From Escherichia phage vB_EcoM_005, in sequence record MK295203: a stretch of DNA of 64,000 nt, one strand, 5' to 3'. Both the position numbers and the translations under genes were made by a program. The notes under the pieces were generated by a model that was not told the DNA's origin, ran no database searches, and saw only the letters and a list, made by a program, of their open reading frames with translations. This document shows, piece after piece, positions 14,532 through 57,787 of the stretch (position 1 is the first letter of the stretch; each line of letters begins with the position of its first letter).

Positions 14532-14995
14532 TGTATATATGTTATCATAATACGATAACCAACACTAAAACCAAGTGTGTCTATCATTATTTTGGTAGAC
14601 ACCGTGTTACTGCTGAAGAATACTACGGTACAGGTAAGTTTGTTAAGAAATGCAAACGAGAAAATGCTATTACTCCAGGTCTTTGGGAGTTTTGTGTTGA
14701 AGTTATCCATACAGTGGATACGTTTAAAGAAGCCAAGATTATTGAAGAAGAGCTTGTTAAAGAAGGCATATCAAAATATGGTATCCTTTGTGTTAATAAG
14801 AATCCTGGTGGTGATGGCGGTGTGGATTACCACACCGAAGAATCTAAACGTAAAATGTCAGAAACTAGAACAGGAAAATCAAGAATATTTTCCGAAAGTC
14901 ATAAAGAAAATTTAAGTAAACGAGCCAGAAAATACTCTGATGTTTGGTCCGAACCTGTATATTCAAATCTTAAAACCATTTGGCTGGAAACAGGT
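14531..14995 (+). CDS. degenerate GIY-YIG/NUMOD endonuclease-like module, in frame with gene 44
   Basis: 155 codons with no stop before the gp44 Met; VYHYFG...YYGTGK (GIY-YIG-like) and HTEESKRKMSE / SESHKENLSK (NUMOD3-like); start overlaps gene 45 stop (TAATG). Confidence 0.45.
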
Positions 14996-17098: not shown

Positions 17099-19711
17099 AT
17101 GCAAGAATTCTATTTGACAGTCGAACAAATCGGTGATAATATTCTCGAACGTTACATCGATAAAAATGGTAACGAACGTAGTCGTGAAGTTCCTTACAAG
17201 CCTACAATGTTTATGCATGCTAATCCAGAGCAAGCCGTAAAATACATTGATATCTATGGTAAGGGTTGTGTTAAGAAAGAATTCGACTCTATGCGTGATG
17301 CATCCCAATGGATGAAACGTATGGACGATATGGGTCTCGAAGCCCTGGGTATGGACGACTATAAATTAGCCTATTTGTCTGATACCTATCGTAAAGAAAT
17401 CAAATACGATTCTTCTAAGATTCGTATTGCTAACTTCGACATCGAGGTAACATCTCCTGATGGATTCCCTGAACCAGCTCAGGCTAAACATCCTATCGAT
17501 GCCATTACCCACTACGACTCGATTGACGATAAATTCTATGTATTCGACCTTTTAGTTTCACCTTATGGTACCGTTGAAGAGTGGTCTATTAAAATCGCTG
17601 AGAAACTCCAAGAAGAAGGTGGTGACGAAGTTCCACAAGAAATCATTGACAAAATCGTTTATCTTCCGTTTAATTCCGAAGAAGAAATGATGCTTGAGTA
17701 TCTGAATTTCTGGCAGCAGAAAACTCCTGTTATTTTGACTGGTTGGAACGTTGAGTCGTTTGACGTACCATACGTTTATAACCGTCTGAAAAATCTGTTT
17801 GGTGAGAACACTGCTAAGCGATTAAGCCCACACCGTAAGACTCGTGTTAAAGTTATCGAGAACATGTATGGTGCTCGTGAAATTATTACACTGTTCGGTA
17901 TCTCTGTTCTGGATTATATCGACCTTTATAAAAAATTCAGCTTTACCAACCAGCCTTCTTATTCTTTGGATTATGTTTCTGAATATGAATTGAAAGTAGG
18001 TAAGTTGAAATATGATGGTCCAATCTCCAAGTTACGTGAGACGAACCACCAACGATATATTTCCTATAACATTATCGACGTATATCGTGTAGTGCAGATT
18101 GATATGAAACGCCAGTTCATTCTTCTGAGTTTGGACATGGGTTATTATGCTAAGATGCAGATTCAGTCGGTGTTCAGTCCAATTAAGACTTGGGACGCTA
18201 TTATCTTTAATAGCCTTAAAGAACAAGGCAAGGTCATTCCACAAGCTCGTTCACACGTGGTCCAACCTTATCCTGGTGCTTTCGTTAAGGAACCTATTCC
18301 TAACGCATACAAATATGTAATGAGTTTTGACCTTACATCTCTGTACCCGAGTATTATTCGACAAGTGAATATAAGCCCAGAGACCATCGCAGGCACATTC
18401 GCTAATGCACCGATACATGAATATATTGCCGGAACAGCTCCGCGTCCTAGCGACGTCTACAGTTGCTCTCCTAACGGCATGATGTACTATAAAGACCGTG
18501 ATGGTGTGATTCCTACAGAAATCACTAAGGTGTTCTTACAACGTAAAGAACATAAAGGTTATATGCTTGCAGCTCAACGTAATGGCGAGTTAATTAAAGA
18601 AGCATTAGAAAATCCTAATCTGTCAGTTGATAGTCCACTGGATATCGATTATCGTTTTGACTTCTCTGACGAAATCAAAGCCAAGATTAAAACGCTGTCA
18701 GCACCTTCTTTAAAAGAAATGTTGTTCAGAGCCGAACGTACTGAAGTCGCAGGTATGACTGCTCAGATTAACCGTAAGTTGCTTATCAACTCCCTTTATG
18801 GTGCACTTGGTAACGTATGGTTCCGTTACTATGACCTCAGGAACGCAACTGCAATCACACTGTTTGGTCAAATGGCCCTCCAATGGATTGAACGTAAGGT
18901 TAACGAATATCTGAACAGCGTGTGTAAGACTGAAAATCAGAAGTTCGTGCTCTATGGTGATACTGACTCCATTTATGTTAAGGCAGATGCAATCATCAAT
19001 AAAGTAGGCGAAGATAAATTCCGTGACACTAACCACTGGGTCGACTTCTTAGATAAATTTGCACGTGAACGTATGGAACCGGCTATTGATGCAGGCTTCC
19101 GTGAGATGTGCGAGTACATGAACAACAAACAACACTTGATGTTCATGGACCGAGAAGCTATCGCAGGTCCTCCACTTGGTTCTAAAGGTCTTGGTGGATT
19201 CTGGACAGGCAAGAAACGTTATGCACTTAACGTTTGGGACATGGAAGGCACTCGTTATGCCGAACCACACTTGAAAATCATGGGTCTCGAAACTCAGAAA
19301 TCAAGTACACCTAAAGCGGTTCAGAAAGCTCTGAAAGAATGTATCCGTCGTATGCTTCAGGAAGGCGAGGCATCTTTGCAAGAATATTTCAAACAGTTTA
19401 ATAAGGAATTTAACGAACTGGACTATGTAAGCATTGCAGCAGTATCCAGTGCTAACAACATCGAGAAATATAATGAAGGCGGATTGGTATATGTACTGCC
19501 ACTTAAAGAAGGCAACCCATTCGGTGAAGCCTGTATGGCATGGCCGTCAGGTATTGAACTTCCGATTCAGATTCGTGACCAAGTCCTCCGTTGGATGGAC
19601 TACAACGTACTGTTCCAAAAGACCTTTATCAAGCCTCTGACTGGTTTTACCGAGTCTGCTAAAATCGACTACGAGAAAAAAGCAACATTATTTGACATGT
19701 TTGACTTTTAA
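17099..19711 (+). CDS. 43: DNA polymerase gp43 (family B)
   Basis: 870 aa from MQEFYLTVEQIG; exonuclease FDIEV, pol motifs SLYPSII, NSLYG, YGDTDS; closest in my recollection to the RB69 polymerase. Confidence 0.95.
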   Translation: MQEFYLTVEQIGDNILERYIDKNGNERSREVPYKPTMFMHANPEQAVKYIDIYGKGCVKKEFDSMRDASQWMKRMDDMGLEALGMDDYKLAYLSDTYRKEIKYDSSKIRIANFDIEVTSPDGFPEPAQAKHPIDAITHYDSIDDKFYVFDLLVSPYGTVEEWSIKIAEKLQEEGGDEVPQEIIDKIVYLPFNSEEEMMLEYLNFWQQKTPVILTGWNVESFDVPYVYNRLKNLFGENTAKRLSPHRKTRVKVIENMYGAREIITLFGISVLDYIDLYKKFSFTNQPSYSLDYVSEYELKVGKLKYDGPISKLRETNHQRYISYNIIDVYRVVQIDMKRQFILLSLDMGYYAKMQIQSVFSPIKTWDAIIFNSLKEQGKVIPQARSHVVQPYPGAFVKEPIPNAYKYVMSFDLTSLYPSIIRQVNISPETIAGTFANAPIHEYIAGTAPRPSDVYSCSPNGMMYYKDRDGVIPTEITKVFLQRKEHKGYMLAAQRNGELIKEALENPNLSVDSPLDIDYRFDFSDEIKAKIKTLSAPSLKEMLFRAERTEVAGMTAQINRKLLINSLYGALGNVWFRYYDLRNATAITLFGQMALQWIERKVNEYLNSVCKTENQKFVLYGDTDSIYVKADAIINKVGEDKFRDTNHWVDFLDKFARERMEPAIDAGFREMCEYMNNKQHLMFMDREAIAGPPLGSKGLGGFWTGKKRYALNVWDMEGTRYAEPHLKIMGLETQKSSTPKAVQKALKECIRRMLQEGEASLQEYFKQFNKEFNELDYVSIAAVSSANNIEKYNEGGLVYVLPLKEGNPFGEACMAWPSGIELPIQIRDQVLRWMDYNVLFQKTFIKPLTGFTESAKIDYEKKATLFDMFDF

Positions 19712-26032: not shown

Positions 26033-26354
26033 TTTATCTGATTTAGATAATTTCGTTAAAGATACCGAAGAGGGTCCTAGTGACCCTCGGTATTATGAGA
26101 AATCATTAGATATAATCCGTAAGTCAATGGGTTCTGTTAAGCAGGAAATTATGCTTACTTTACCCGATGGCACTGCTCACATCGTTTATGTGATGAATAT
26201 TGTTATTGAGAAAGATGGAAAAGTGTCGGTTGATTTCGGAACACCTTCCGAAGACCGAAAAGAAGAGCTAGCGCTTCATGTAGAAAAATGTGTTACAATG
26301 CAAATACAAGAAGAACTGGATAAAATTAAATCTAAGAGGTGGTGGAAATGGTAG
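26025..26354 (+). CDS. hypothetical protein at the T4 gene 40 position
   Basis: 109-aa ORF between uvsX and 41; synteny only. Confidence 0.4.
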   Translation: MTDLSDLDNFVKDTEEGPSDPRYYEKSLDIIRKSMGSVKQEIMLTLPDGTAHIVYVMNIVIEKDGKVSVDFGTPSEDRKEELALHVEKCVTMQIQEELDKIKSKRWWKW

Positions 26355-27780
26355 AAACTATTTTGGCTCAACTGCTAGGCAATAGTGATTATTTCACTAA
26401 GGTCTGGCCTTATATGAATGATTCTTATTTTGACCAGGGTCCTGCAAAGACCCTTTTCAAAGAAATTAAAAAACACGTCAATGAATATAATGCAGTGCCT
26501 TCTAAGAACGCATTGAGCATTGCATTAGATAACAGTACGCTTTCAGAAGTTGAACATCAGGGCGCTAAAGAGCTTTTAAGTTCACTGAATGCCGGACCTG
26601 AAGACCAAGAATGGTTGGTTAAAGAGACGGAGAAATACGTTCAGAAAGCAGCGATGTATAATGCAACTTCAAAAATCATTGAAATCCAAACTAATGCCGA
26701 CCTTCCGGTTGAGCAACAAAATAGAAAACTTCCAGGTATTGGTGCTATTCCTGGATATCATGCGTGATGCATTATCGATTTGTTTCGATTCTGAATTAGG
26801 TCATGACTGGATGGATGACTATGAAGAACGATTCAAAAGTTATTCCGATAAAGCACGTAAGGTTCCGTTCCGTCTTAATATTCTGAATAAGATTACCAAG
26901 GGTGGTGCCGAGTTTGGTTACTGAAAACGTATTGTTGGCAGGAACAAACGTAGGTAAGTCTCTTGGCCTGTGTTCATTGGCTGCTGATTACCTTCAATCA
27001 GGTTACGATGTTCTTTATATCTCCATGGAGATGGCAGAGGAAGTATGTGCTAAGCGTATAGATGCCAACCTTCTGGATGTATCGCTGGATGATATCGATG
27101 ATGGTCATGTCTCTTGGCCTGAATATAAAGCTAAGATGGATAAATGGCGTTCAACTGCTACCTTAGGTCGTTTAAAGATTAAACAGTATCCTACTGGTGG
27201 TGCTAATGCCGATACCTTCCGTGCATTATTAAACGAATACAAGCTCAAACAAAACTTTGTGCCGCAGGTCGTTATCGTCGACTACTTGGCCATTTGTGCA
27301 TCGTCTCGTACTAAAGTTTTCTCTGAAAACAGTTACGGATTGATTAAGATGGTAGCCGAAGAACTACGTGGACTGGCAGTAGAGAAGAAATTATTGTTGT
27401 GGACAGCAGCCCAGACTACTCGTGGTGCGAACGTTGCGGCCGAAATCGATATGGCTGATATTGCTGAATCATTTGGTATTGCACATACTGCAGACTTCAT
27501 GTTAGGTGTGGTCGAGACAGAAGAGTTTGCTCAGATGGGTATGCAAATGGTTAAGCAGCTTAAATCTCGTTACGGCGATAAGAGCTACTACAACAAATTT
27601 AAGATTGGCGTTAAGAAAGGAAACCAACGTTGGTATGAAGTTGAAGACGATTCCAACCCAGGCCCGGTGAACACTGTTCGTGAGGCTACAGGTGAGATGA
27701 ATCGTCAAGCCGAGGTCAATCGTCAGACGCGTGTTAATAGAAGTGATTTAGACGATTTAGCAGCATCTATCAAATTTTAA
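26348..27780 (+). CDS. 41: replicative DNA helicase gp41 (DnaB-like), interrupted by two apparent +1 indels
   Basis: three consecutive ORFs in three frames (to 26767, 26589-26924, 26902-27780) together colinear with my recollection of T4 gp41; Walker A GTNVGKS; frame changes near 26754 and 26918. Confidence 0.85.
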
Positions 27781-27800
27781 GGAGCTTCGGCTCCTTTTTT
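27781..27800 (+). terminator. rho-independent terminator
   Basis: GGAGC-TTCG-GCTCC hairpin followed by TTTTTT. Confidence 0.6.
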
Positions 27801-27809
27801 GTTTTAAGG

Positions 27810-27838
27810 GTTTACATCTCCTATAGGCATGATACTAT
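27810..27838 (+). promoter_or_regulatory. T4-type early promoter
   Basis: GTTTAC 27810-27815, 17-nt spacer, TACTAT 27833-27838, AGACCTATCAAC leader. Confidence 0.55.
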
Positions 27839-27862
27839 AGACCTATCAACTTGGAGAACAAA

Positions 27863-30145: not shown

Positions 30146-30676
30146 ATGGGTTCAGGAGGGCCTTTAAGTAGGGCAAAGGAAAAATACGGGCTGGAAAATT
30201 TCGAAAGAGAAATTCTAGAGTTTTTCCCTAATGAAGACCTAATGAACGAAGCTGAGGCAGCTATAGTAACTAAAGAATTTATTAAAAGACCCGATGTTTA
30301 TAATGCTGTGCCGGGCGGCAGAAGTTTTAGAGTAGGCCCGACGGAAAATTATGATTCTAAACGGCATTCAGAAGTCCAGATAAAAAGCTGGGATAATCCT
30401 GAAAAAAGGGCCAAGCAAGCCAAAACTATAAAAGCTATCGCATGGAAAGAATGGGATAATTTAGAGGAAGTAAAAATCCGACATAAAGAATCCTGCAGTA
30501 AAGCACAAAGAAAACATAAAGCCTGGAAAGATTATAATGTATTAAAAGAGATTTGGGTTAAATTAGGAAAACCTGGATACGGTAGGTTTAATAATGAATT
30601 AATTAAGCTTGGTTACGAAAAAAGAAATTACCAAAGAATGGTAGATGCTTTTAATAAAGAGGAAGAACTAGTATGA
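30146..30676 (+). pseudogene. GIY-YIG homing endonuclease remnant (N-terminally truncated)
   Basis: begins inside the catalytic domain (KYMGSGG...KEKYGLENFEREILE); NUMOD-like linker; C-terminal module shared with the two HNH ORFs downstream. Confidence 0.5.
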
Positions 30677-30927
30677 GTTTTGTAGACAGAGAATTTGCTT
30701 TAAGAGCTTTTCAAACACTGCCAAAATTTAGACAAGTTACCGGAAGCGATTTTAAGCTTAACGCAAGGTGCCCTATTTGTGGTGACTCACAGAAAGACGA
30801 ACATAAAGCTCGTTTTTGGGCTTATCCTGTGAATGATGGTGGCATTATGTTGCACTGCTTCAATTGCGATGCTAGTTTAGGAATTAAGAAGTATCTATAC
30901 GAATACGAGCCTGATTTATATCGTTAA
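30673..30927 (+). CDS. 61: DNA primase gp61, N-terminal zinc-binding domain as a separate ORF
   Basis: FKLNARCPICGDSQKDEHKARFW...HCFNC matches my recollection of the T4 gp61 zinc ribbon; ORF stops after EPDLYR. Confidence 0.8.
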   Translation: MSFVDREFALRAFQTLPKFRQVTGSDFKLNARCPICGDSQKDEHKARFWAYPVNDGGIMLHCFNCDASLGIKKYLYEYEPDLYR

Positions 30928-30940
30928 GATGCCTGTCATC

Positions 30941-31144
30941 GAAAAGCTTAATTTCTGTGAACGATTAGATAGAATGCCAAACGACCATCCTATTATCAAA
31001 TATGTGACACTACGTTGCATTCCTGAAAACAAATGGAATCGTGAAAAGCTTAATTTCTGTGAACGATTAGATAGAATGCCAAAGGACCATCCTATTATCA
31101 AATATGTAACACTACGTTGCATTCCTGAAAACAAATGGAATCGC
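30941..31144. repeat. tandem duplication, 2 x 102 bp (in frame) within primase
   Basis: two copies differing at 3 positions. Confidence 0.8.
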
Positions 31145-31496
31145 TTATGGTTTACTAAAGAATGGCCGGCATTGGTGAACTCTGTCAATCCAGGGACCTA
31201 TTCTAAATTGAAATGCCTGAGCCTCGTTTGGTTATTCCAATTTTCAATAAGAATAAACAAATTGAAAGTTTTCAGGGTCGAGCCTTACGTAAAGATGCTC
31301 CACAAAAATATATTACAATACGTTGTGGTTTACTAAAGAATGGCCGGCATTAGTTAACTCTGTGAATCCAGGGACCTATTCTAAAGAAATGCCTGAACCT
31401 CGTTTGGTTATTCCAATTTTCAATAAGAATAAACAAATTGAAAGTTTTCAGGGTCGAGCCTTACGTAAAGATGCTCCACAAAAATATATTACAATA
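31145..31496. repeat. tandem duplication, 2 x about 178 bp within primase
   Basis: copies nearly identical; copy 1 carries a small indel and the period is not a multiple of 3. Confidence 0.8.
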
Positions 31497-31592
31497 AGTT
31501 GGTGTGGGTAATGGAAGGCCCTATTGACTCTTTGTTTGTTCCGAATGCAATAGCAATTACTGGCGGGTCGTTGGACTTGGCTATGGTTCCAT

Positions 31593-31690
31593 GTAAAGAA
31601 ACTCGTGCCTGGGTAATGGACAATGAACCCCGCCATCCGTTGTAAAGAAACACGTGCCTGGGTAATGGACAATGAACCCCGCCATCCTGA
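31593..31690. repeat. tandem duplication, 2 x 49 bp within primase
   Basis: GTAAAGAAAC(T/A)CGTGCCTGGGTAATGGACAATGAACCCCGCCATCC repeated. Confidence 0.8.
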
Positions 31691-31719
31691 CACAATTAAG
31701 CGTATGCAACGATTAGTTG

Positions 31720-32370
31720 ATGCTGGCGAAAGGGTTCTATTCTGGGACAAGAGGAAAATTAAGAGGTTCTAAGCGGTCTTTATCATATTATACGGAAGAA
31801 CACCATGTTATACCTAGATGTATGAATGGTTCTGATGATAAAAACAATTTAGTTGCTTTATTGCCAAGAGAACACTTTGTAGCTCATAGGCTTTTAACAA
31901 AAATATATCCCGAAGTAAAAGGTCTACATTATGCTGTTAATTTAATGAGATATAATAAAGGAGTTAAATTAACTAGTAGAACTATAGCCACGTTAAGAGA
32001 AAATAACGCTAAAGCATTTTCAGGAAAAAATAACCCGATGTTTGGTAAACCTTCCTGGATTAGAGGGATGAAAACTCCTGAAGAAACTAAAGCCAAAATG
32101 CGCCTGGCTCATAAAGATAAAATTATATCTGATGAAGCCAAGGCCAATATGAGTAAAGCTAGAAAAGGAAGATTTAGTGGTAAAGATTCCCCTAGATATG
32201 GTTTGCCAAATCCTAGGCGTGGAGAAATATGGAATAGTTACGATATGCTTTATGAATTATGGGTTTACAATAATAAACCTAAACGCACCAAATTTAATAA
32301 AATAGCTGTTGATAATGGATATCCTGATATTTGTTATCGACGAATGATAGAAAACTTTAATAGGAAATAA
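31720..32370 (+). CDS. HNH homing endonuclease
   Basis: EEHHVIPRCMNGSDDKNNLVALLPREHFVAH (HNH motif); NUMOD-like repeats; first ATG lies inside the last codons of the primase fragment in another frame. Confidence 0.65.
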   Translation: MLAKGFYSGTRGKLRGSKRSLSYYTEEHHVIPRCMNGSDDKNNLVALLPREHFVAHRLLTKIYPEVKGLHYAVNLMRYNKGVKLTSRTIATLRENNAKAFSGKNNPMFGKPSWIRGMKTPEETKAKMRLAHKDKIISDEAKANMSKARKGRFSGKDSPRYGLPNPRRGEIWNSYDMLYELWVYNNKPKRTKFNKIAVDNGYPDICYRRMIENFNRK

Positions 32371-32374
32371 TATA

Positions 32375-32512
32375 ATGGCATTTTTTAACGAATGTAGTGG
32401 TTTGATTTCTGGTGTTGATAAAGCTGAGGAAGCTTATTTTAATGCTCTGATTCACGAAGATAATTTATTTATTCGCTTTAATCTAACAGTTTATAATTAT
32501 CTAACTTATTAA
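32375..32512 (+). pseudogene. dCTPase gp56 N-terminal fragment (diverged partial duplicate)
   Basis: MAFFNECSGLISGVDKAEEAYFNALIHED then out-of-family tail; 52 bp identical to the start of the next copy. Confidence 0.5.
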
Positions 32513-32535
32513 TGAATTGAAAAAGGAAAAATATA

Positions 32536-32955
32536 ATGGCACACTTTAACGAATGCGCAAACCTGATTGCTGGTGTTGATAAAGCTGAGGAAGCTTATTT
32601 TAATGCTCTGATTCACGAAGATAAGGACCCTCTGCAGGTTATGTTGCGTGAACAGAAAGATTGTATTGACGATGAATTCCGTGAACTTCTGACTTCCCTC
32701 GGTGAAATGTCTAAAGGTGAGAAAGATGCATCTGCTGTATGGAAAAAATGGAAAGCCCGTTACCCGGAAGCACAAGCCAAACCTATTTCAGAAATGTCTC
32801 CTGAAGACCAGCTTGAAATTAAATTTGAACTCATTGATATTATGCACTTCGTATTCAATATGGCTATTGGCTTGAATATGTCGGCTGAAGAAATGTTTAA
32901 ACTTTATTACCTGAAAAATAAACACAACTTTGAACGCCAGGACAATGGATATTAA
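32536..32955 (+). CDS. 56: dCTP pyrophosphatase gp56 (MazG-like), copy 1
   Basis: 139 aa; MAHFNECA..., KDCIDDEFRELLTSLGEMS, EDQLEIKFELIDIMHF, KLYYLKNKHNF match my recollection of T4 gp56; lacks about 32 internal residues relative to T4. Confidence 0.8.
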   Translation: MAHFNECANLIAGVDKAEEAYFNALIHEDKDPLQVMLREQKDCIDDEFRELLTSLGEMSKGEKDASAVWKKWKARYPEAQAKPISEMSPEDQLEIKFELIDIMHFVFNMAIGLNMSAEEMFKLYYLKNKHNFERQDNGY

Positions 32956-33379
32956 TTTCAAATCCGTTCTTAAAGAAAAGTTCCCGCAATGGGAACTTTT
33001 AGAAGATAAACCTGAATATAACCGTCATCCTGATGACTTGGCTACTGCAGGTGAAGTTGTTGATTGGTTGCGCAATCAGAAAGATTATATTGATGATGAA
33101 TTCCGCGAACTTCTGACTTCTCTTGGTGGCATGAGCAATGGCGAAAAAGATGCGAGCGCTGTATGGAAGCCTTGGAAAGCTCAACATGCTGAACGTCGTG
33201 AAACCCTGATTAACGATTTGTCTCCTGAAGACCAGCTCGAAATTAAATTCGAAATGATTGATATTCTGCACTTTGTTCTGAATATGTTCCAAGGTCTTGG
33301 ACTGACTGCTGAAGAAATCTTTAAACTGTATTACCTGAAAAATAAACACAACTTTGAACGCCAGGACAATGGATATTAA
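32945..33379 (+). CDS. 56: dCTP pyrophosphatase gp56 (MazG-like), copy 2 with a different N-terminus
   Basis: 144 aa; carries the HPDDLATAGEVVDWLRNQKDYIDDEF segment missing from copy 1 but lacks the MAHFNEC N-terminus; last 90 nt identical to copy 1. Confidence 0.7.
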   Translation: MDINFKSVLKEKFPQWELLEDKPEYNRHPDDLATAGEVVDWLRNQKDYIDDEFRELLTSLGGMSNGEKDASAVWKPWKAQHAERRETLINDLSPEDQLEIKFEMIDILHFVLNMFQGLGLTAEEIFKLYYLKNKHNFERQDNGY

Positions 33380-33412
33380 TTTCAAATCCGTTCTTAAAGA
33401 AAAGTTCCCGCA

Positions 33413-34210
33413 ATGGGAACTTTTAGAGGTCATGATTACTTAAAAATTATAGATAAGTATAAACTAAACGTCCATACCAAATCTAAAACTGAAGCTCATC
33501 ATATACTTCCGAAGTGTGCATTTCCAGAATACAGCGATTTTAAAATCTCTCCTTGGAATAGGGTGTATCTTCCTATATACCAACACATATATGTTCATTA
33601 TCTTTTGTGCTCAACTAAGGTGTCGGGTTTGCTTAATGCATTCCAGAGAATGACACTAACAAATAGTGCCCAGTTTAAGAAGCTTTCTGATTTAGAGAAA
33701 GACCTTACTATTAAGTTATGGGCCGATAAACGTGGGGAGTGGATAGAGCAAGACATTCTCCGTAAAAGAAAATCCTTTATGTATTCTAATTTTGATTTCT
33801 GGTATAATGACTGGATTTCGCGGGATATGCCTCGCTATCGAAGATATTGGGGAGTTTTGGTTGAAGAAAATAATCCGGAAGTTTTAGGTACCCACAAAAA
33901 TAGTTTATTGACAGTGGTAAAAGATTTTTGTTTGAGATACGCAGAAGAACATAATTTATCTGAAGAAGAAGTTTTGAGTCTTCAAAAATTAAAACAGTCT
34001 TCAGAAAAAGCTTTAAAAGATAAAGGAAAAACTTTAAGTAAAACTGCTAGAGGCAATCAACTCAAATGGAATTATGAAACTGAGCTTAGGAATTTATGGA
34101 TTGCTAATAACAAACCAAAATATGTGAATTTCAGAAAGCTAGTGGTTAGCTTAGGCTACCCGGATGAAAATTATATAAACATGATAAAGAGGTTTGAAAA
34201 TGGGTTCTGA
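33413..34210 (+). CDS. HNH homing endonuclease
   Basis: TEAHHILPKCAFPEYSD...NRVYLP...HIYVH (HNH motif); start codon lies within a 92-bp repeat derived from gene 56. Confidence 0.65.
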   Translation: MGTFRGHDYLKIIDKYKLNVHTKSKTEAHHILPKCAFPEYSDFKISPWNRVYLPIYQHIYVHYLLCSTKVSGLLNAFQRMTLTNSAQFKKLSDLEKDLTIKLWADKRGEWIEQDILRKRKSFMYSNFDFWYNDWISRDMPRYRRYWGVLVEENNPEVLGTHKNSLLTVVKDFCLRYAEEHNLSEEEVLSLQKLKQSSEKALKDKGKTLSKTARGNQLKWNYETELRNLWIANNKPKYVNFRKLVVSLGYPDENYINMIKRFENGF

Positions 34211-37445: not shown

Positions 37446-37514
37446 ACCACCCGGTTTAATTGAAAGGCAAAGTCCTTGATTCATTATACCGTCGAAAATT
37501 TAAAGCAAAAAAGT

Positions 37515-37543
37515 GTTTACTTTATCAAGCAACGTGATACTAT
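37515..37543 (+). promoter_or_regulatory. T4-type early promoter
   Basis: GTTTAC 37515-37520, TACTAT 37538-37543, AGACCTATCAAC leader. Confidence 0.55.
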
Positions 37544-37582
37544 AGACCTATCAACTAATCGTCCGTAAGATGAGAAAAAATT

Positions 37583-38318: not shown

Positions 38319-38618
38319 GTGATGTACTATGCATACGTATTAGTTCACAAGGACAAAGATGGGTATGAAATTCCATTGGAATATGAAGGAAAGGTGACCT
38401 TATATTCCACAAAAGCCGCTGCTGATTTCGAATGTGCTGGGTATTCATACACTACAAAACAATATTTAAGTAAGGGACGCATTGAAACAGTGTACACACC
38501 TAGAAAATGGTGGTTTGATAAGCGGGAAACAAAAACCGTATATCCTACTGAAGAACGGGCCCGAGAACTTAAATTAGTTTTAGACACTTTATATGTTAAG
38601 CGAGTAAAATTGGCATGA
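38319..38618 (+). CDS. hypothetical protein
   Basis: 99-aa ORF. Confidence 0.45.
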   Translation: MMYYAYVLVHKDKDGYEIPLEYEGKVTLYSTKAAADFECAGYSYTTKQYLSKGRIETVYTPRKWWFDKRETKTVYPTEERARELKLVLDTLYVKRVKLA

Positions 38619-39819
38619 TTACATTTGAAGACTTGAACATCGGCCAGAGGACGGCTTTTAAAGAAATCATTGAAGCTATTAAACGACGTAAGGGTGAATG
38701 GATTACATTGAACGGCCCTGCTGGTACGGGTAAAACAACCCTTACCAAATTTATTCTTGACCATCTAGTCAAGAATGGTGAACTCGGTAACAACGCGAAG
38801 CTCCTGACTTGAGCAAATGTAATGTGCTGGTTGTTGATGAAGGCTCGATGATTGACGGTAAGCTGTTTAAGATTATCGAATCTTCCGTGCCTCCATGGTG
38901 TACTGTATTAGGGATTGGCGACAGAGCTCAGCTACAGCCAGTGGAACCGGGAAGTGATGGTAGTCCACAGTTGTCTCCGTTCTTTACTCATCCAAAAATC
39001 AAGCAATTGCATTTGACCGAAGTAATGCGTAGTAATGCTCCTATTATTGAGGTGGCTACGGAAATCCGTAATGGTGGATGGTTTAGAGATTGTGTATTCG
39101 AAGGACACGGTGTCCATGGCTTTAAATCTCAAACTGCTTTAAAAGATTTTATGATGAATTATTTTTCCATCGTAAAAGACGCGGATGCCTTATTTGAAAA
39201 TAGGATGTTTGCTTATACAAATAAATCGGTTGAAAAGCTGAATAGCATTATTCGTAAAAAGCTTTATGAAACCGATGCACCTTATATCAAGGGTGAAATC
39301 CTAGTGATGCAAGAGCCTTTTATTAAGGAACTTGAATACGACGGTAAGAAATTCTCTGAAACCATTTTTAATAACGGCCAAATGGTTCGTATTCTGGATG
39401 TGAACCACACCTCATTGTTCTTGTCTGCCAAGGATGTAGGCACCCGTCAAATGATTAATTACTGGGACCTGCAAGTAGAATCCGTTGATGAAGACGACGA
39501 GTACTACGTAGAGCATTTAAAGGTTATCGATGAGGCTTCGGTTGAGAAGTTCCATTATTTCTTGGCTAAGGTTGCTACTGAGTACAAAGCCATGCGTGGT
39601 AGTGGTAAGAAACCTAAGTGGGCCGATTTTTGGAAAGCTAAGAGAATGTTCACTAAGGTTCGAGCTCTTCCTGTGAGCACTGTTCATAAATCGCAGGGCC
39701 TCACAGTCCAGAACAGTTTCATCTATACACCGTGTATGCATATGGCTGATGTGAGTTTAGCTTCACAGCTAGCTTATGTTAGTATTACTCGTGCTCGTAC
39801 TGATGCTTATTACGTTTGA
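38615..39819 (+). pseudogene. dda: DNA helicase Dda, split by internal deletion and frame change
   Basis: N-terminal ORF with Walker A NGPAGTGKTTLTKFI stops at 38812; second ORF from 38809 resumes at APDLSKCNVLVVDEGSM (Walker B); about 43 residues including motif Ia are missing. Confidence 0.75.
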
Positions 39820-39826
39820 GGAAAAT

Positions 39827-40066
39827 ATGATTAAAGTAACTAAAGACCAATTTTATAAGTTGAAATTTGAAACTGAATATATTATTAAGGTCAACCAAGA
39901 CGATACCAATATCAGTGGCAAGGCTCATAAGGTCTTGCATTCTCTTAAAGAGATTGAAAGTGATTTTATTGCAATACAAAAACTGATGGACGACAATATC
40001 TCTTCGGTTTATATTGAAGACTACACCGTCGGCCAAATCCGAGACCTTATGAGGTATGTTAAATGA
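39827..40066 (+). CDS. hypothetical protein
   Basis: 79-aa ORF from internal ATG with RBS. Confidence 0.4.
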   Translation: MIKVTKDQFYKLKFETEYIIKVNQDDTNISGKAHKVLHSLKEIESDFIAIQKLMDDNISSVYIEDYTVGQIRDLMRYVK

Positions 40067-40482
40067 AAGATATAATTATTGACTTTGAAACCTTTGCCAC
40101 TACCCAAAATGCAGCGGTTATCGACCTCGCCGTAATTGCTTACGACCCTAATCCAGCCTTTGACTTTCCTATCTTAGTCGACCTAATCCGTGATGCTTAT
40201 CGTTCTGAAGGTGTTCCTGAGAATGAAATTGATACCAGTAAATTAGAACCGGTTAAATTCTGGAACCAACGCGATATCCGTACAGCCATTGAAGCATATT
40301 CACTAACTCGTGGATTGAGCATGTGTCCTCTGCCTAACGGAACATTGAAGGGCTTTGTTGCTCATGACTCCATCCATGACTGTGCTAAGGATATCTTGAT
40401 GCTGAAATATGCCCAACGATACGCCTTGAGCCTGGAAGATGTCCCTGAGAATCCAGACCCATTAAGTATAAAAAATCGATAA
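40063..40482 (+). CDS. dexA: exonuclease A DexA (DEDDh), with large internal in-frame deletion
   Basis: IIIDFET (motif I) and HDSIHDCAKDILML (motif III) match my recollection of T4 DexA; 139 aa versus about 227 aa in T4. Confidence 0.7.
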   Translation: MKDIIIDFETFATTQNAAVIDLAVIAYDPNPAFDFPILVDLIRDAYRSEGVPENEIDTSKLEPVKFWNQRDIRTAIEAYSLTRGLSMCPLPNGTLKGFVAHDSIHDCAKDILMLKYAQRYALSLEDVPENPDPLSIKNR

Positions 40483-50024: not shown

Positions 50025-50114
50025 GTAGCAAAACGTGGTGCCTTATTTGGATGGCCTGTATCCCAGTGATCTGTGTATGTTTTAGTTTATTGTTGTGGAA
50101 ATTGGCATAAATCA

Positions 50115-50143
50115 GTGTACATCTCCATTAATCATGATACTAT
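50115..50143 (+). promoter_or_regulatory. early promoter (GTGTAC -35 variant)
   Basis: GTGTAC 50115-50120, 17-nt spacer, TACTAT 50138-50143, AGACCTATCAAC leader. Confidence 0.45.
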
Positions 50144-50169
50144 AGACCTATCAACTAATGGAGATGATT

Positions 50170-53024: not shown

Positions 53025-53043
53025 GGGTTTAGTGCAAAAAAGT

Positions 53044-53072
53044 GTTTACATCTGCTTTAAACATGATACTAT
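53044..53072 (+). promoter_or_regulatory. T4-type early promoter
   Basis: GTTTAC 53044-53049, 17-nt spacer, TACTAT 53067-53072, AGACCTATCAA leader. Confidence 0.55.
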
Positions 53073-53110
53073 AGACCTATCAAATAAATGAACTGAAACG
53101 GAGATACAAA

Positions 53111-53989: not shown

Positions 53990-54328
53990 ATGATTCCGAT
54001 GGAACTTAACTGGGACGGTGAAGGTCATTCCCTTAAATTGATTGAAGAACAACGTAATGATTGGGACGAGCGTGTAGCTTTGGTAAGCGGTATTAAGAAA
54101 ATTTACCAACTCGATCTCCAGATTGATAACGTTTATCTTGAATTTGGTATGCAGTTATTACGATTTCTTGAGATTATTTTTATTGAAAAGGTAAATATAA
54201 CTTCGTATGGCGAGGGCCAAACAGTTAATATTAAATTATCATCCTATTATAAAGGCGAGTTAATTGAAACTGCCACCAAAATTCAAGAATTTGCTAAAGA
54301 TAACGGCCATAAGGTGATTTTCAAATGA
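53990..54328 (+). CDS. hypothetical protein
   Basis: 112-aa ORF with AAGGA RBS. Confidence 0.4.
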
Positions 54329-54813
54329 ATCCATTAAAAGGTAAAGCATTATCCTTTAAAGACCGTATGGCTTTATTAGATAAAGCTCTTTCTCGTGAGA
54401 CGCCTGAAAGTCTAGCAGCTAAATTACGGGCATATGGTGATTACACCGAATATACAGAAGAGGATGTTTTAGAAGAGGTTCCTGAAATCTGTTGGCAAAT
54501 CGCTCATTGGAACAATAATGAAAAATATCAGCGCAGGATTGTGTGCGCAGCCAACCGCTTTAAGTTAAAAGACGGTGGGACTCTGGTTATTCCTGGCGCT
54601 CGTCATTATTCTAAAGATATGGCTGAAGTTCTCGACCAGGTAAGTGATAAACTTGTATCAGACCATGTTTGTGGTGATGACCAAGGATTTATTGACCAAT
54701 ATTCAAACTATTGGACTCGCGAAGAAGCAATGATTATTGCGACTTATGCTAATCAAGTTCGTATTGAACGTGGTGGCAGTGAAAAAGAACTTTACTCTGA
54801 GGACCTTTACTAA
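54325..54813 (+). CDS. hypothetical protein, tandem paralogue A
   Basis: 162 aa; [31 protein letters not shown]...[20 protein letters not shown]. Confidence 0.5.
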
Positions 54814-54907
54814 TGAATCTTAAACAACTCCAGATTGATGCAATCGAAGCCCATATTAATCATGTTAAACGTCTTACCCTCTGGCAACGTGTTAAAGGAT
54901 GGTTCAA

Positions 54908-55396
54908 ATGAATCCATTAAAAGGTAAAGAATTATCCTTTAAACACCGTTTGGCTTTATTAGATAAAGCTCTTTCTCGTGAGACGCCTGAAAGTCTAGCA
55001 GCTAAATTACAGGCCTATGGTGATTACACCGAATATACGGAAGAGGATGTTCTAAAAGAAGTCCCTGAAATCTGTTGGCAAGTGGCCCATTGGTGTGAAG
55101 ACCAAAAATTCCAGCGTCGAATTGTATGTGCTGCAAACCGTTTTAAGTTAAAAGATGGTGGAACTCTGGTTATTCCTGCGACACGTCATTACTCTAAAGA
55201 TATGGGTGCGGTTATCAAGGCAGTTGAAGATAAATTGGTAACACGATTTGTCTGTGATGATGACCAAGGCTTTGTCGACCAATATGGTAATTATTGGACT
55301 CGTGAAGAAGCAATGATAATTGCAACATATGCTAATCAGGTTCGTATTGAACGTGGTGGTAGTGAAAAAGAACTTTACTCTGAGGACCTTTACTAA
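54908..55396 (+). CDS. hypothetical protein, tandem paralogue B
   Basis: 163 aa; same domain as 54325-54813, mosaic of identical and diverged blocks. Confidence 0.5.
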
Positions 55397-55417
55397 TGAA
55401 TCTTAAACAACTCCAGA

Positions 55418-55678
55418 TTGATGCAATCGAAGCCCATATTAATCATGTTAAACGCACTGAATGCCACGGTGGAAGATAATTGGGGAACTTATGTAAACCA
55501 ACCGGCTTGGGATGCTTTAGACCACGAATATATAAAGAATATTAGTTCTAAGACAATCCACGGGAATATGGAAGGGTTGAAGCCATTCCTACGTGATATG
55601 TATATTGCAACTAATAAAGAAATTATCAGCTCTCTTGAATATCAATTAAGGAAATTACGTGAACAATCTGGTAGCTAA
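55418..55678 (+). CDS. hypothetical protein (second copy at 56899-57111)
   Basis: 86-aa ORF; C-terminal 70 residues repeated nearly identically 1.4 kb downstream. Confidence 0.4.
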   Translation: MMQSKPILIMLNALNATVEDNWGTYVNQPAWDALDHEYIKNISSKTIHGNMEGLKPFLRDMYIATNKEIISSLEYQLRKLREQSGS

Positions 55679-55800
55679 GCACGACTCATAAGGACAAGAA
55701 GAAAAACTTTAAAGAGTCTAAACGTAAACAGAAACATAAGGGTAAAGGCTATGAGTCATAACTTAGAGAATACCGTAACAGGCATGCGTACACGGGACAT

Positions 55801-55829
55801 GTTTACAATCCCTAAGGATATGTTAGTAT
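55801..55829 (+). promoter_or_regulatory. T4-type early promoter (copy 1)
   Basis: GTTTAC 55801-55806, 17-nt spacer, TAGTAT 55824-55829. Confidence 0.5.
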
Positions 55830-55870
55830 AGCCCTATCAGATAATGACGTACTGAATTGAAGAGAATATT

Positions 55871-56005
55871 ATGACTAAAATTGAAATCGTTTCCGAAATT
55901 GCCACTATTGTTTCCATTTTGATTAAAACGGATTGTGAAGACATCATGCAACGTCGTGATGAGTTTATGAACATGTTTACAATCCCTAAGGATATGTTAG
56001 TATAG
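55871..56005 (+). pseudogene. asiA 5' duplicate, truncated at the repeat junction
   Basis: MTKIEIVSEIATIVSILIKTDCEDIMQRRDEF then reads into the repeated promoter sequence and stops. Confidence 0.5.
55975..56003 (+). promoter_or_regulatory. T4-type early promoter (copy 2)
   Basis: identical to the 55801-55829 promoter. Confidence 0.5.
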
Positions 56006-56044
56006 CCCTATCAGATAATGACGTACTGAATTGAAGAGAATATT

Positions 56045-56320
56045 ATGACTAAAATTGAAATTGTTTCCGAAATTGCTACTATTGTTTCCATTTTGATTAA
56101 AACGGATTGTGAAGACATCATGCAACGTCGTGATGAGTTTATTGCCTTTTTGAATGAGTTGGGTATTCGTAATGAACATGGAAAGGAACTTAATGGTTTG
56201 TCTTATAACAAATTATTTAAGTCTTTAACTGAAGATGAACGTGACACTCTTATTGAGCAATTTAATGAAGGATATGAAGATATACACCGTTATTTAATGA
56301 TGTATACCTCCAATTTCTAA
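56045..56320 (+). CDS. asiA: anti-sigma-70 factor AsiA
   Basis: 91 aa; TIVSILIK...FIAFLNE.G..HEG..LN..S..K....LTE...TLIEQFNEGYE..HRYL.MYT matches my recollection of T4 AsiA. Confidence 0.85.
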   Translation: MTKIEIVSEIATIVSILIKTDCEDIMQRRDEFIAFLNELGIRNEHGKELNGLSYNKLFKSLTEDERDTLIEQFNEGYEDIHRYLMMYTSNF

Positions 56321-56643
56321 CGTGTTCGACCTAATGTCCTTCCGGCTTGACCGCACATAGACGAAAGTCTAGGAAATCCTAAATCCGGTTTGGCGCCTTT
56401 TTGAATGAGTTAGGTATTCGTAATGAACATGGAAAGGAACTTAATGGTTTGTCTTATAACAAATTATTTAAGTCTTTATCTGAAGATGAGCGTGAAACTC
56501 TTATTGAGCAATTTAATGAAGGATATGAAGATATACACCGTTACTTAATGATGTATACCTCCAATTTCTAACGTGTTCGACCTAATGTCCTGCCCGGCTT
56601 GACCACACATAGACGAAAGTCTAGGAAATCCTAAATCCGGTTT
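56144..56643. repeat. tandem duplication, 2 x about 250 bp (asiA 3' half plus the convergent holin 3' end)
   Basis: copy 1 56144-56392, copy 2 56395-56643, about 97% identical. Confidence 0.8.
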
Positions 56644-56907
56644 GATATCATACCAGTACAACGATATCGAGCCGGCGTAGACGTTATCCAAATTAAAAAA
56701 CGGGCATGAAAACATATACGTGAATTGTGTTTTCTTCTTTGTAGGAAGGAATACAGTTTCAGTACTTGATTCAAAGATATCATACCAGTACAACGATATC
56801 GAGCCGGAGTAGACGTTATCCAAATTAAAAAACGGGCATGAAAACATATACGTGAATTGTGTTTTCTTCTTTGTAGGAAGGAATACAGTTTCGATGTCAT
56901 GGTGGAA
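56644..56907. repeat. tandem duplication, 2 x 132 bp (in frame, 44 codons of holin)
   Basis: copies differ at one position. Confidence 0.8.
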
Positions 56908-57111
56908 GACAACTGGGGAACTTATGTCAACCAACCGGCTTGGGATGCCTTAGACCACGAATATATAAAGAATATTAGTTCTAAGACAATCCATGGTAAT
57001 ATGGAAGGGTTGAAGCCGTTCCTACGTGATATGTATATTGCAACTAATAAAGAAATTATCAGCTCTCTTGAATATCAATTAAGGAAATTACGTGAACAAT
57101 CTGGTAGCTAA
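56899..57111 (+). CDS. duplicate copy of the 55418-55678 ORF, embedded within the holin region
   Basis: 70-aa ORF about 93% identical at DNA level to 55469-55678. Confidence 0.35.
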   Translation: MVEDNWGTYVNQPAWDALDHEYIKNISSKTIHGNMEGLKPFLRDMYIATNKEIISSLEYQLRKLREQSGS

Positions 57112-57133
57112 GCACGAGGGTACTTGATTCAAA

Positions 57134-57339
57134 ATAGTTCCCGTTAACTCCCGCCATATATTCTACTGACGTTTTGTCAATTGGAAACCCTCCCGTATTT
57201 TTTGCGTCTACCGTTTCCGGTAATTTACCCTCGTAGATAGTTCCCGTTAACTCCCGCCATATATTCTATTGACGTTTTGTCAATTGGAAACCCTCCCGTG
57301 TTTTTTGCGTCTACCGTTTCCGGTAATTTACCCTCGTAG
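57134..57339. repeat. tandem duplication, 2 x 103 bp within holin
   Basis: copies differ at 2-3 positions; period not a multiple of 3. Confidence 0.8.
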
Positions 57340-57343
57340 GCCA

Positions 57344-57461
57344 CCATATCCACAAAATAATTCATGTTGGTTGGTCTAAAAGAATATATTGCTGTGAAGG
57401 AGCAACCATATCCACAAAATAATTCATGTTGGTTGGTCTAAAAGAATATATTGCTGTGAAG
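57344..57461. repeat. tandem duplication, 2 x about 62 bp within holin
   Basis: 56 bp identical in both copies; creates the stop ending the N-terminal holin ORF. Confidence 0.8.
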
Positions 57462-57763
57462 TCTGCGCCTGAAGAAGAATGCACTATTCGGAGCTGCTCG
57501 ATAGCCGCAATTTTAAATCTATTGTCCTGGTCTTGTCTAATCATTTCAGTATAAGAGGCATAAGTTGTCTCTTTATAAAAGTTTAGAATATACTCGCCTT
57601 TATACCAAACCAATGCCATAAAGAACAATAATATCACGACTAGGACCCGGGAAAAAACTACTTTCCCGGAAGAAGTATCTTTAAAAATTCTATCAAGAAG
57701 TCCAAAAAGTAGGTCTGATAATGATATTCCTACTTTTGGTTCCATACTTTTCTCCTTTAAAGA

Positions 57764-57771
57764 TATTTATA
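57764..57771 (-). promoter_or_regulatory. T4 late promoter (TATAAATA) for holin
   Basis: minus-strand TATAAATA followed by AAGGAG RBS and the holin ATG. Confidence 0.55.
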
Positions 57772-57787
57772 ATTTAATACTTTCGTA

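What the first reader, a model, noticed from the sequence alone, without database searches (positions are those of the whole stretch)
40063..40482. DexA exonuclease retains motifs I and III but lacks about 85 central residues
The ORF is in frame and begins and ends like T4 DexA (IIIDFET...HDSIHDCAKDILML), but is 139 aa against about 227 aa in my recollection of T4; the junction falls between DPNP(AF) and DFPILVDLIR. The deleted segment would include part of the DEDDh catalytic core.
Basis: partly seen in the sequence, partly recalled or inferred. Interest (0 to 1): 0.4.

Follow-up and report, generated by a model that had tools for sequence, protein, structure and literature searches.

The report
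Truncated dexA: probable assembly artefact
The exonuclease gene dexA really is missing its central 85 codons, but the same GenBank phage record (Escherichia phage vB_EcoM_005) has about twenty similar clean-edged deletions, some in genes the phage cannot live without, so this is most likely an assembly error rather than a new short enzyme.

Summary
ORF 40063-40482 (+) encodes a 139-aa DexA. It lacks exactly 255 nt (residues E32-S117, replaced by one Ala) relative to the 224-aa DexA of four related Dhakavirus phages and the 227-aa T4 enzyme.

The interpretation needs one correction. All five DEDDh catalytic residues survive (D7, E9, D34 = T4 D119, H101, D106). What is lost is about 40% of the fold and the tetramer contacts. 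AlphaFold confidence (pLDDT) falls from 93.5 to 59.

The window is part of the public record of Escherichia phage vB_EcoM_005. That record is 155,101 bp, against 168-172 kb for its relatives, and this product is annotated there as AZV01102.1.

The dexA lesion is not isolated:
- About 17 sharp deletions of net 98-101 nt (most exactly 99).
- One of 127 nt, which frameshifts the adjacent dda.
- One of 152 nt in gp52.
- Two uncompensated +1 insertions in gp41.
- Scrambled gp61, gp56 and holin regions.

These lesions hit DNA polymerase gp43, gp46, gp41 and rIIA. None occurs in the four relatives aligned or between them, and no listed database phage spans the dexA or dda junction.

The best explanation is an assembly or finishing artefact of the deposited genome (about 0.78). 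A real deletion of this conditionally dispensable gene remains possible (about 0.17). Interest is low.

The parts
40063..40482 (+). Truncated dexA ORF (139 aa plus stop). Identical to AZV01102.1 / YP_010100655.1, 'exonuclease [Escherichia phage vB_EcoM_005]'.
40063..40156 (+). Retained 5' part, DexA residues 1-31 plus the first base of codon 32. It covers strands beta1-beta2 with Exo I residues D7 and E9, and is 100% aa identical to IME08.
40156..40157 (.). Deletion junction. 255 nt present in IME08, VR5, MX01, AnYang and ABTNLS3 are absent here. There is no microhomology between the ends, and the fused codon GCC gives Ala32.
40157..40482 (+). Retained 3' part, DexA residues 117(part)-224. It holds Exo II Asp D34 (codon 40162-40164, = T4 D119) and Exo III H101 (40363-40365) and D106 (40378-40380). 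It is 98% aa identical to IME08.
38615..39819 (+). Neighbouring dda helicase gene, broken by a net 127-nt loss at 38788 (128 nt replaced by one T). The frameshift leaves a 65-aa fragment (38615-38812, annotated as AZV01099.1) and a 336-aa ORF (38809-39819). It has the same sharp junction style as dexA.
39776..40066 (+). dexA.1, intact. Its stop overlaps the dexA start (ATGA), as in relatives.
19485..19486 (.). Context: a 99-nt deletion inside DNA polymerase gp43. It removes the segment equivalent to RB69 residues about 797-829. The product is 870 aa; all 13 full-length orthologues listed in its cluster are 903 aa or more (903; 923 for IME08).
26753..26918 (+). Context: two uncompensated +1 insertions (G at 26753, T at 26918) split the replicative helicase gene 41 across three reading frames.

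Best explanation
The 255-nt gap in dexA is most likely an assembly or finishing error in the deposited genome of Escherichia phage vB_EcoM_005, not a property of the living phage. The record carries a family of block losses with clean edges and stereotyped net lengths, together with small frameshifts and locally duplicated or scrambled stretches. The real phage most probably encodes an ordinary 224-aa DexA, a DEDDh 3'-5' exonuclease like that of T4. Shown: the lesions exist, they are specific to this record, they have stereotyped sizes, and they are present in the deposit. Inferred: that they arose during assembly. The exact computational cause is unknown. If the 139-aa product were ever made, it would most probably be misfolded and inactive.
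For: (1) Source. The 139-aa product is an exact match to AZV01102.1 of vB_EcoM_005, on a 155,101-bp record; relatives are 168-172 kb.
(2) Record-wide pattern. Against IME08, AnYang, MX01 and ABTNLS3 the window shows about 17 sharp deletions of net 98-101 nt, most exactly 99, plus 127 (dda), 255 (dexA) and 152 (gp52).
(3) Control. The relatives compared with each other show no gap of 99, 127 or 255 nt.
(4) Junction style. In well-conserved flanks, 6 of 10 junctions carry one unmatched base and 4 carry none. That is what 'L nt replaced by one arbitrary nt' predicts, with L = 100, 128 (dda) or 256 (dexA). It is not what a deletion plus an independent SNP predicts at about 4% divergence (my calculation). 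There is no microhomology at the dexA junction.
(5) The deleted segments are unrelated to one another, so they are not a mobile element.
(6) Essential or conserved genes are hit: gp43 loses 33 aa that are conserved in RB69 polymerase; gp46 has two deletions; gene 41 has two +1 frameshifts; gp61, gp56 and the holin region are scrambled with tandem duplications; gp52 loses its C-terminus; NrdC loses residues 2-34. By established T4 genetics, a plaque-forming phage cannot carry these together.
(7) The lesion-bearing products are all annotated in the deposit, and every full-length orthologue listed in their 90% clusters has the normal length.
(8) The retained dexA sequence shows no decay (98-100% aa identity), so the loss is 'fresh'.
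(9) No phage record listed spans either junction in one piece: the top 30 nucleotide matches are split into three or four pieces, and the protein matches that cover both halves of DexA do so in two pieces.
Against: No reads or coverage data are available, so the artefact is inferred and not demonstrated. I could not identify the process that gives 99/100, 127/128 and 255/256. dexA and dda are adjacent and both dispensable in T4 under standard conditions, so real loss of both is biologically possible. The dexA loss is in frame. Its length (255) differs from the dominant 99-nt class, so it need not share their cause.
Confidence: 0.78

Rival explanations
1. This is a real, recent in-frame deletion in the phage. 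dexA, and the frameshifted dda next to it, are genuine pseudogene remnants of conditionally dispensable early genes, while the other lesions in the record are artefacts. The 139-aa product would be inactive, and the phage would fail on optA-type hosts.
For: T4 dexA is needed only on optA hosts, and deletion mutants are viable (PMC12153337 and its refs 11-12; T4 genetics from my own knowledge). The two odd-sized lesions (127 and 255 nt) lie 1.4 kb apart in neighbouring dispensable genes. The ORF and its translational coupling to dexA.1 are intact.
Against: The junction style is the same as in the 99-nt class: sharp, no microhomology, and a one-base filler in dda. From my own knowledge, spontaneous T4 deletions typically end in short direct repeats. 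The lengths 128 and 256 are round binary numbers. There is no secondary decay of the remnant. No other phage or contig shares the junction. The record is demonstrably unreliable elsewhere.
Confidence: 0.17
2. This is a functional minimal DexA. Because all five DEDDh residues are retained, the 139-aa protein might still fold, perhaps as a dimer, and act as an exonuclease or as a dominant-negative or regulatory partner.
For: D7, E9, D34, H101 and D106 are all present. W152 and D169 of T4, implicated in 5hmC recognition, lie in the retained part.
Against: The deletion removes strand 45-49, the short strand residues at about 104-113 and four helices. It also removes near-invariant residues K48, Q54, R58, T64, W67, W68, Q71, D85, C113, R114 and G115. 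With the same alignment, AF2 mean pLDDT is 59.0 and pTM 0.37, against 93.5 and 0.90 for the full-length protein. The Pfam PF16473 score of 21 bits is below the 27-bit cut-off. No homologue of similar architecture appears among 176 hits.
Confidence: 0.03
3. The deletion was introduced when the 64-kb window was prepared (masking or editing) and is absent from the public record.
For: The round lengths (100, 128, 256) look computational. The junction is absent from all contig collections scanned.
Against: The exact 139-aa product, including the junction residue Ala32, is an NCBI and RefSeq protein of vB_EcoM_005. Seven other lesion-bearing products are also exact matches to proteins of that record.
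Confidence: 0.01

Closest known systems
T4 DexA (exonuclease A), 227 aa, PDB 8KEL/8KEN; Nucleic Acids Res 2025, PMC12153337
   Same: It is a clear orthologue. The full-length Dhakavirus protein matches T4 DexA at E = 1e-102, and its model superposes on 8KEN with TM 0.95. The window ORF keeps the same N- and C-termini and the catalytic residues D7, E9, D119, H186 and D191.
   Different: It lacks residues 32-117, including tetramer contacts S72, S87 and D90 and the central strand 45-49 and four helices. It is 139 aa instead of 227.
Dhakavirus DexA (IME08 ADI55340.1, VR5 AIZ01800.1, MX01, ABTNLS3 WPJ21522.1), 224 aa
   Same: Same genus, and the same locus order srd-dda.1-dda-dexA.1-dexA-motB.2-motB.1-motB. 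The retained parts are 98-100% aa identical.
   Different: All are full length. Only the vB_EcoM_005 record has the 255-nt gap.
DEDDh / DnaQ-like 3'-5' exonucleases (RNase T, oligoribonuclease, ExoI, Rv2179c/RNase AS; Pfam PF16473)
   Same: The full-length relative has this fold, and Pfam PF16473 is precomputed on the full-length homologues. The Exo I, II and III residues are present in the window ORF.
   Different: The window ORF scores below the family threshold (21 vs 27 bits, matching residues 3-30 only), and the fold is incomplete.
T4 deletion mutants of the 39-56 region lacking dexA and dda (classical genetics, my own knowledge; dexA is conditionally required on optA hosts)
   Same: They show that loss of dexA and dda is tolerated by a T-even phage on ordinary hosts, so a real deletion is not excluded.
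   Different: Those are single larger deletions in otherwise intact genomes. Here the same record also has lesions in essential genes.

Membership tests
DexA / PF16473 DEDDh 3'-5' exonuclease | Significant sequence homology to T4 DexA | tested here: met
   tblastn E = 1e-67 to VR5 dexA, and 70.9% identity to T4 over residues 32-139. PHROG 255 'exonuclease' at E = 2.6e-44.
DexA / PF16473 DEDDh 3'-5' exonuclease | Exo I motif D-x-E | tested here: met
   D7 and E9 in IIIDFET. These columns are nearly invariant.
DexA / PF16473 DEDDh 3'-5' exonuclease | Exo II aspartate (T4 D119) | tested here: met
   D34 in AFDFPIL, two residues after the junction residue Ala32.
DexA / PF16473 DEDDh 3'-5' exonuclease | Exo III H-x4-D (T4 H186, D191) | tested here: met
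   H101 and D106 in HDSIHD.
DexA / PF16473 DEDDh 3'-5' exonuclease | Complete DnaQ-like alpha/beta fold | tested here: not met
   Residues 32-117 are absent: helices 37-43, 62-69, 73-79 and 88-101, strand 45-49, and short strand residues at about 104-113. The truncated model has pLDDT 59.0 and pTM 0.37, against 93.5 and 0.90.
DexA / PF16473 DEDDh 3'-5' exonuclease | Pfam gathering threshold for PF16473 | tested here: not met
   21 bits against a 27-bit cut-off, with only residues 3-30 matched.
DexA / PF16473 DEDDh 3'-5' exonuclease | Family-typical length (218-235 aa) and the conserved central residues | tested here: not met
   139 aa. K48, Q54, R58, T64, W67, W68, Q71, D85, C113, R114 and G115 are absent.
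DexA / PF16473 DEDDh 3'-5' exonuclease | 3'-5' exonuclease activity; dimer/tetramer formation | not testable with these tools
   Tetramer-contact residues S72, S87 and D90 (PMC12153337) fall in the deleted part.
Record-specific block-deletion class (assembly artefact) | Sharp junction, no microhomology, 0-1 nt filler | tested here: met
   dexA has 0 filler and no shared bases at the ends; dda has 1 filler base.
Record-specific block-deletion class (assembly artefact) | Present only in this record; the relatives agree with each other | tested here: met
   Four relatives give the same 255-nt gap, and the controls between relatives show none. No listed phage hit spans the junction in one piece.
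Record-specific block-deletion class (assembly artefact) | Same stereotyped length as the main class (net 99 nt) | tested here: not met
   The dexA loss is 255 nt (or 256 replaced by 1), not 99. Only the style of the junction and the round length are shared.
Record-specific block-deletion class (assembly artefact) | Not supported by sequencing reads | not testable with these tools
   No reads are available. The source contig is absent from the viral, metagenome and genome contig collections.

The most novel reading that the evidence does not exclude
The deletion is real, and the 139-aa protein, which keeps all five DEDDh catalytic residues on beta1-beta2 plus the Exo II and Exo III helices, is a naturally occurring minimal or regulatory DexA. 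A more extreme version is that vB_EcoM_005 truly tolerates many 33-codon deletions in core genes.
Probability: 0.03. Interest if true: 0.45.

Novelty: not a real feature. Interest (0 to 1): 0.1.

Why it matters
As biology it matters little. DexA is a well-characterised, structurally solved, conditionally dispensable T4-type exonuclease, and a broken copy would be an ordinary pseudogene. The practical value is curatorial. The vB_EcoM_005 record is in RefSeq (YP_0101006xx proteins) and bears the name of the ICTV species Dhakavirus ecom005. It appears to contain about twenty block deletions, plus frameshifts and local duplications. As a result, truncated 'exonuclease', 'DNA polymerase', 'thioredoxin', 'DNA helicase' and 'RIIA' sequences have entered NCBI nr and UniRef. 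Anyone using these proteins, or genome-wide identity to this record for species demarcation, should be aware of this.

Tried and rejected
1. Looked for the junction, and for window-specific non-junction k-mers, in IMG/VR, metagenome and GTDB genome contigs. All scans returned zero, so there was no independent copy of the allele or of the source.
2. The look-up of encoding contigs for the exact 139-aa product returned nothing. For MotB.2 it returned only phage MX01, which has a full-length dexA.
3. Tested whether the deleted segments are copies of a mobile element or intron. They share no similarity, and the dexA segment is conserved coding sequence in T4 and the other full-length homologues aligned. 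Rejected.
4. Tested whether the deletions fall on a fixed 100-nt grid, as dropped FASTA lines or binned masking would. Restored coordinates of neighbouring events differ by non-multiples of 100 (for example 577), by my arithmetic. Rejected.
5. Considered that the window was edited by the pipeline. Rejected by the exact protein matches to the deposit.
6. Considered natural strain variation. Some indels are natural and were set aside. They are seen against only one relative, or are shared with a relative, or are whole-gene differences with microhomology: 3510, 7500, 11656, 36150. Six homing-endonuclease insertions are also natural.
7. The last exact look-up, of gp41, dda, modA.3 and nrdH fragments, found nothing, probably because my guessed start codons differ from the annotation. 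It is uninformative, and one of the five queries was a guessed peptide that should be ignored.
8. A paper search for vB_EcoM_005 found nothing.
9. I could not explain why the losses are 99/100, 127/128 and 255/256 nt. From my own knowledge, 99 and 127 are the two largest default SPAdes k-mer sizes, which hints at a graph-stitching error, but this is untested.

Full report
**1. What is in the sequence**

ORF 40063..40482 (+) starts with ATG and encodes 139 aa. The product reads MKDIIIDFETFATTQNAAVIDLAVIAYDPNPAFDFPILVDLIR...AHDSIHDCAKDILMLKYAQRYALSLEDVPENPDPLSIKNR. Its start overlaps the stop of the upstream dexA.1 ORF (ATGA).

The gene order is srd, dda.1, dda, dexA.1, dexA, motB.2, motB.1, motB. 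This is the T4-type early region. The nearest database genomes are Dhakavirus phages (IME08, AnYang, QL01, MX01, ABTNLS3, VR5) at about 91-95% nucleotide identity.

**2. The deletion**

dexA is 675 nt (224 aa) in IME08, VR5, MX01 and ABTNLS3. T4 DexA is 227 aa (PDB 8KEL/8KEN).
- A four-way nucleotide alignment shows one gap of exactly 255 nt after window position 40156.
- BLAST against four relatives gives the same figure.
- Codon 32 (G|AG) is fused to codon 117 (T|CC), giving GCC. So E32...S117 is replaced by Ala32, a net loss of 85 residues.
- The ends share no microhomology.
- The retained parts are 100% and 98% identical in protein to IME08.

**3. What the deletion removes**

The T4 DexA structure paper (PMC12153337) labels the catalytic residues in its Figure 5 legend as D7, E12, D119, H186 and D191. 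I take its 'E12' to be E9 (position 12 of T4 DexA is Gly; E9 is nearly invariant), and this reassignment is my own reading. D119 lies in SFDFPIL, immediately 3' of the junction, so it is kept as D34. H186 and D191 become H101 and D106.

An AlphaFold2 model of the full-length Dhakavirus protein has pLDDT 93.5 and pTM 0.90. It superposes on 8KEN at TM 0.95, and on RNase T, Orn, ExoI and RNase AS. In that model, residues 32-117 comprise:
- helix 37-43;
- strand 45-49;
- helices 62-69, 73-79 and 88-101;
- short strand residues at about 104-113.

That is about 40% of the DnaQ-like core. The deleted part also holds near-invariant residues (K48, Q54, R58, T64, W67, W68, Q71, D85, C113, R114, G115) and the tetramer contacts S72, S87 and D90.

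With the same alignment, the 139-aa sequence models poorly (pLDDT 59.0, pTM 0.37). It also falls below the Pfam PF16473 threshold (21 vs 27 bits). If the protein were made, it would most probably be misfolded and inactive. That last step is inference.

**4. Are there orthologues of this length?**

A search of 5.8 billion proteins gave 176 hits. Of the 120 listed, all are 218-235 aa except two. One is a 117-aa protein from a 1,388-bp contig. The other is a 100% identical 139-aa entry: AZV01102.1 / YP_010100655.1, 'exonuclease [Escherichia phage vB_EcoM_005]', on a 155,101-bp record. The species is Dhakavirus ecom005.

So the window is part of that public record. The deletion is in the deposit and was not made when the window was cut.

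**5. The lesion is not alone**

I aligned the whole window with IME08, AnYang, MX01 and ABTNLS3. This shows about 17 sharp deletions of net 98-101 nt, most exactly 99 and most confirmed by two to four relatives. The junctions are at about the following window positions:

| Window position | Gene hit |
|---|---|
| 1442 | orf82 |
| 2783 | nrdC.4 |
| 3352 | nrdC |
| 4560 | SegE-like endonuclease |
| 5819 | nrdH |
| 12297 and 12775 | gp46 (both) |
| 16916 | orf47 |
| 19486 | gp43 |
| 24504 | orf39 |
| 32647 | gp56 |
| 35709 | modA.3 |
| 44941 | 3' end of gp39 |
| 46090 and 46749 | rIIA (both) |
| 53959 | ORF186 |
| 55792 | ORF183 region |

The record also shows:
- a net loss of 127 nt in dda (38788, with a frameshift);
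- the 255-nt loss in dexA;
- a 152-nt loss at the end of gp52 (52848);
- two uncompensated +1 insertions that split gene 41 over three frames (26753 and 26918);
- scrambled, locally duplicated stretches in gp61/gp56 (30925-33400) and in the holin-asiA region (55797-57773), where duplicate copies are 96-99% identical and separated by 0-2 nt.

As a control, the relatives compared with one another show no gap of 99, 127 or 255 nt. The deleted segments are unrelated to each other.

In well-conserved flanks, 6 of 10 junctions carry one unmatched base and 4 carry none. A model in which L nt are replaced by one arbitrary base predicts about 44% with no visible filler, which fits. A clean deletion plus an independent SNP predicts about 8% with filler, which does not fit. 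These are round numbers that point to a computational rather than a biological process. This is my inference.

**6. The lesions hit genes a T-even phage needs**

- gp43 loses 33 residues that align with RB69 polymerase residues about 797-829. Its product is 870 aa, whereas all 13 full-length orthologues listed in its cluster are 903 aa or more (903; 923 for IME08).
- gp46 is 494 aa instead of 560.
- NrdC is 54 aa instead of 87.
- gp44 is fused to an upstream endonuclease fragment (478 aa instead of 319-330).
- Dda is reduced to a 65-aa fragment (orthologues are 443 aa).
- gp52 is 395 aa instead of 442-459.

These products, rIIA (670 aa) included, are annotated in the vB_EcoM_005 record.

Genes 41, 43, 44, 56 and 46 are essential or nearly so in T4 (classical amber-mutant genetics, my own knowledge). 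A phage that forms plaques cannot carry all these defects, so the record misrepresents the phage. By extension, the dexA gap is best read as one more assembly or finishing error. It shares the sharp, filler-type junction, it is unique to this record, and it shows no secondary decay.

**7. What remains open**

Without reads I cannot prove the dexA gap is an artefact. dexA is required only on optA hosts. dda is also dispensable in T4 (my own knowledge). These two neighbouring genes carry the two odd-sized lesions, so a real loss is possible, and I give it about 0.17. A functional 'mini-DexA' is very unlikely (about 0.03).

I could not identify the mechanism behind the lengths. A fixed 100-nt grid is excluded. 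From my own knowledge, 99 and 127 equal the two largest default SPAdes k values, which is only a hint. PCR across dexA.1-motB.2, or read mapping, would settle the question.

**8. Comparison with known systems, and verdict**

[quoted passage not shown] The window copy fails the tests for fold completeness, family threshold and length. It passes the tests for homology and catalytic residues.

Nothing here is new biology. The finding is a correct observation of a defect in a public record, so interest is low. The useful by-product is a warning that the record of the phage after which Dhakavirus ecom005 is named, and the proteins derived from it, are unreliable.

Noticed in passing
window 38615-39819 (junction 38788): The dda helicase is broken by a net 127-nt loss (128 nt replaced by one T). 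This frameshifts the gene into a 65-aa Walker-A fragment and a 336-aa C-terminal ORF. The missing part covers roughly IME08 Dda residues 61-103. The 65-aa fragment is annotated as 'DNA helicase' AZV01099.1.
   Followed up: yes
window ~1442, 2783, 3352, 4560, 5819, 12297, 12775, 16916, 19486, 24504, 32647, 35709, 44941, 46090, 46749, 53959, 55792: About 17 sharp deletions of net 98-101 nt (mostly exactly 99) relative to two to four related phages. They hit orf82, nrdC.4, nrdC, a SegE-like gene, nrdH, gp46 (twice), orf47, gp43, orf39, gp56, modA.3, gp39, rIIA (twice) and two small ORFs. None occurs between the relatives themselves. The cause of the fixed length is unexplained.
   Followed up: yes
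window 26339-27780: Gene 41 (the replicative helicase, essential in T4) is split over three frames by two single-base insertions: G at 26753 (making GG) and T at 26918 (making TT).
   Followed up: partly
window 30673-33400: The primase gp61 and dCTPase gp56 region is scrambled. It has tandem duplications of 47-173 nt whose copies are 94-99% identical and separated by 0-3 nt, a 438-nt loss at 31752, and two partial gp56 copies 424 nt apart (79-97% identical). It is flanked by homing-endonuclease genes: MobE-like at 31717-32370, and others at 30146-30676 and 33413-34210.
   Followed up: partly
window 54320-57773: The holin t / asiA / ORF183-184 region contains several direct duplications (103-300 nt, 87-99% identical) and relocated pieces. 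asiA is partly duplicated and the holin is fragmented over two frames.
   Followed up: partly
window 52848: The topoisomerase II medium subunit gp52 loses its C-terminal 47-64 residues (395 aa against 442-459 in orthologues) through a 153-nt-for-1-nt replacement.
   Followed up: partly
window 14531-15967: A 488-nt insertion between gp45 and gp44 encodes a homing-endonuclease fragment (PHROG 314) with no stop codon. It runs in frame into gp44, giving the annotated 478-aa 'clamp loader' AZV01061.1 (orthologues are 319-330 aa).
   Followed up: partly
window 4157-5131: A SegE-like GIY-YIG homing-endonuclease gene occupies the place where IME08 has gene 49 (endonuclease VII). The same arrangement is found in ABTNLS3, E33, 04086 and Bp7, so it looks natural. 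No gp49 homologue was found anywhere in the window.
   Followed up: partly
window 27800-27862, 37505-37567, 50105-50167, 53034-53096: Four copies of a conserved intergenic motif (GTTTAC...ATGATACTATAGACCTATCAAC) that look like T4-type early promoters.
   Followed up: no
whole window / public record: The source is Escherichia phage vB_EcoM_005. It is a RefSeq record of 155,101 bp, about 15 kb shorter than other Dhakavirus genomes. Its truncated proteins have entered nr and UniRef under normal functional names.
   Followed up: yes
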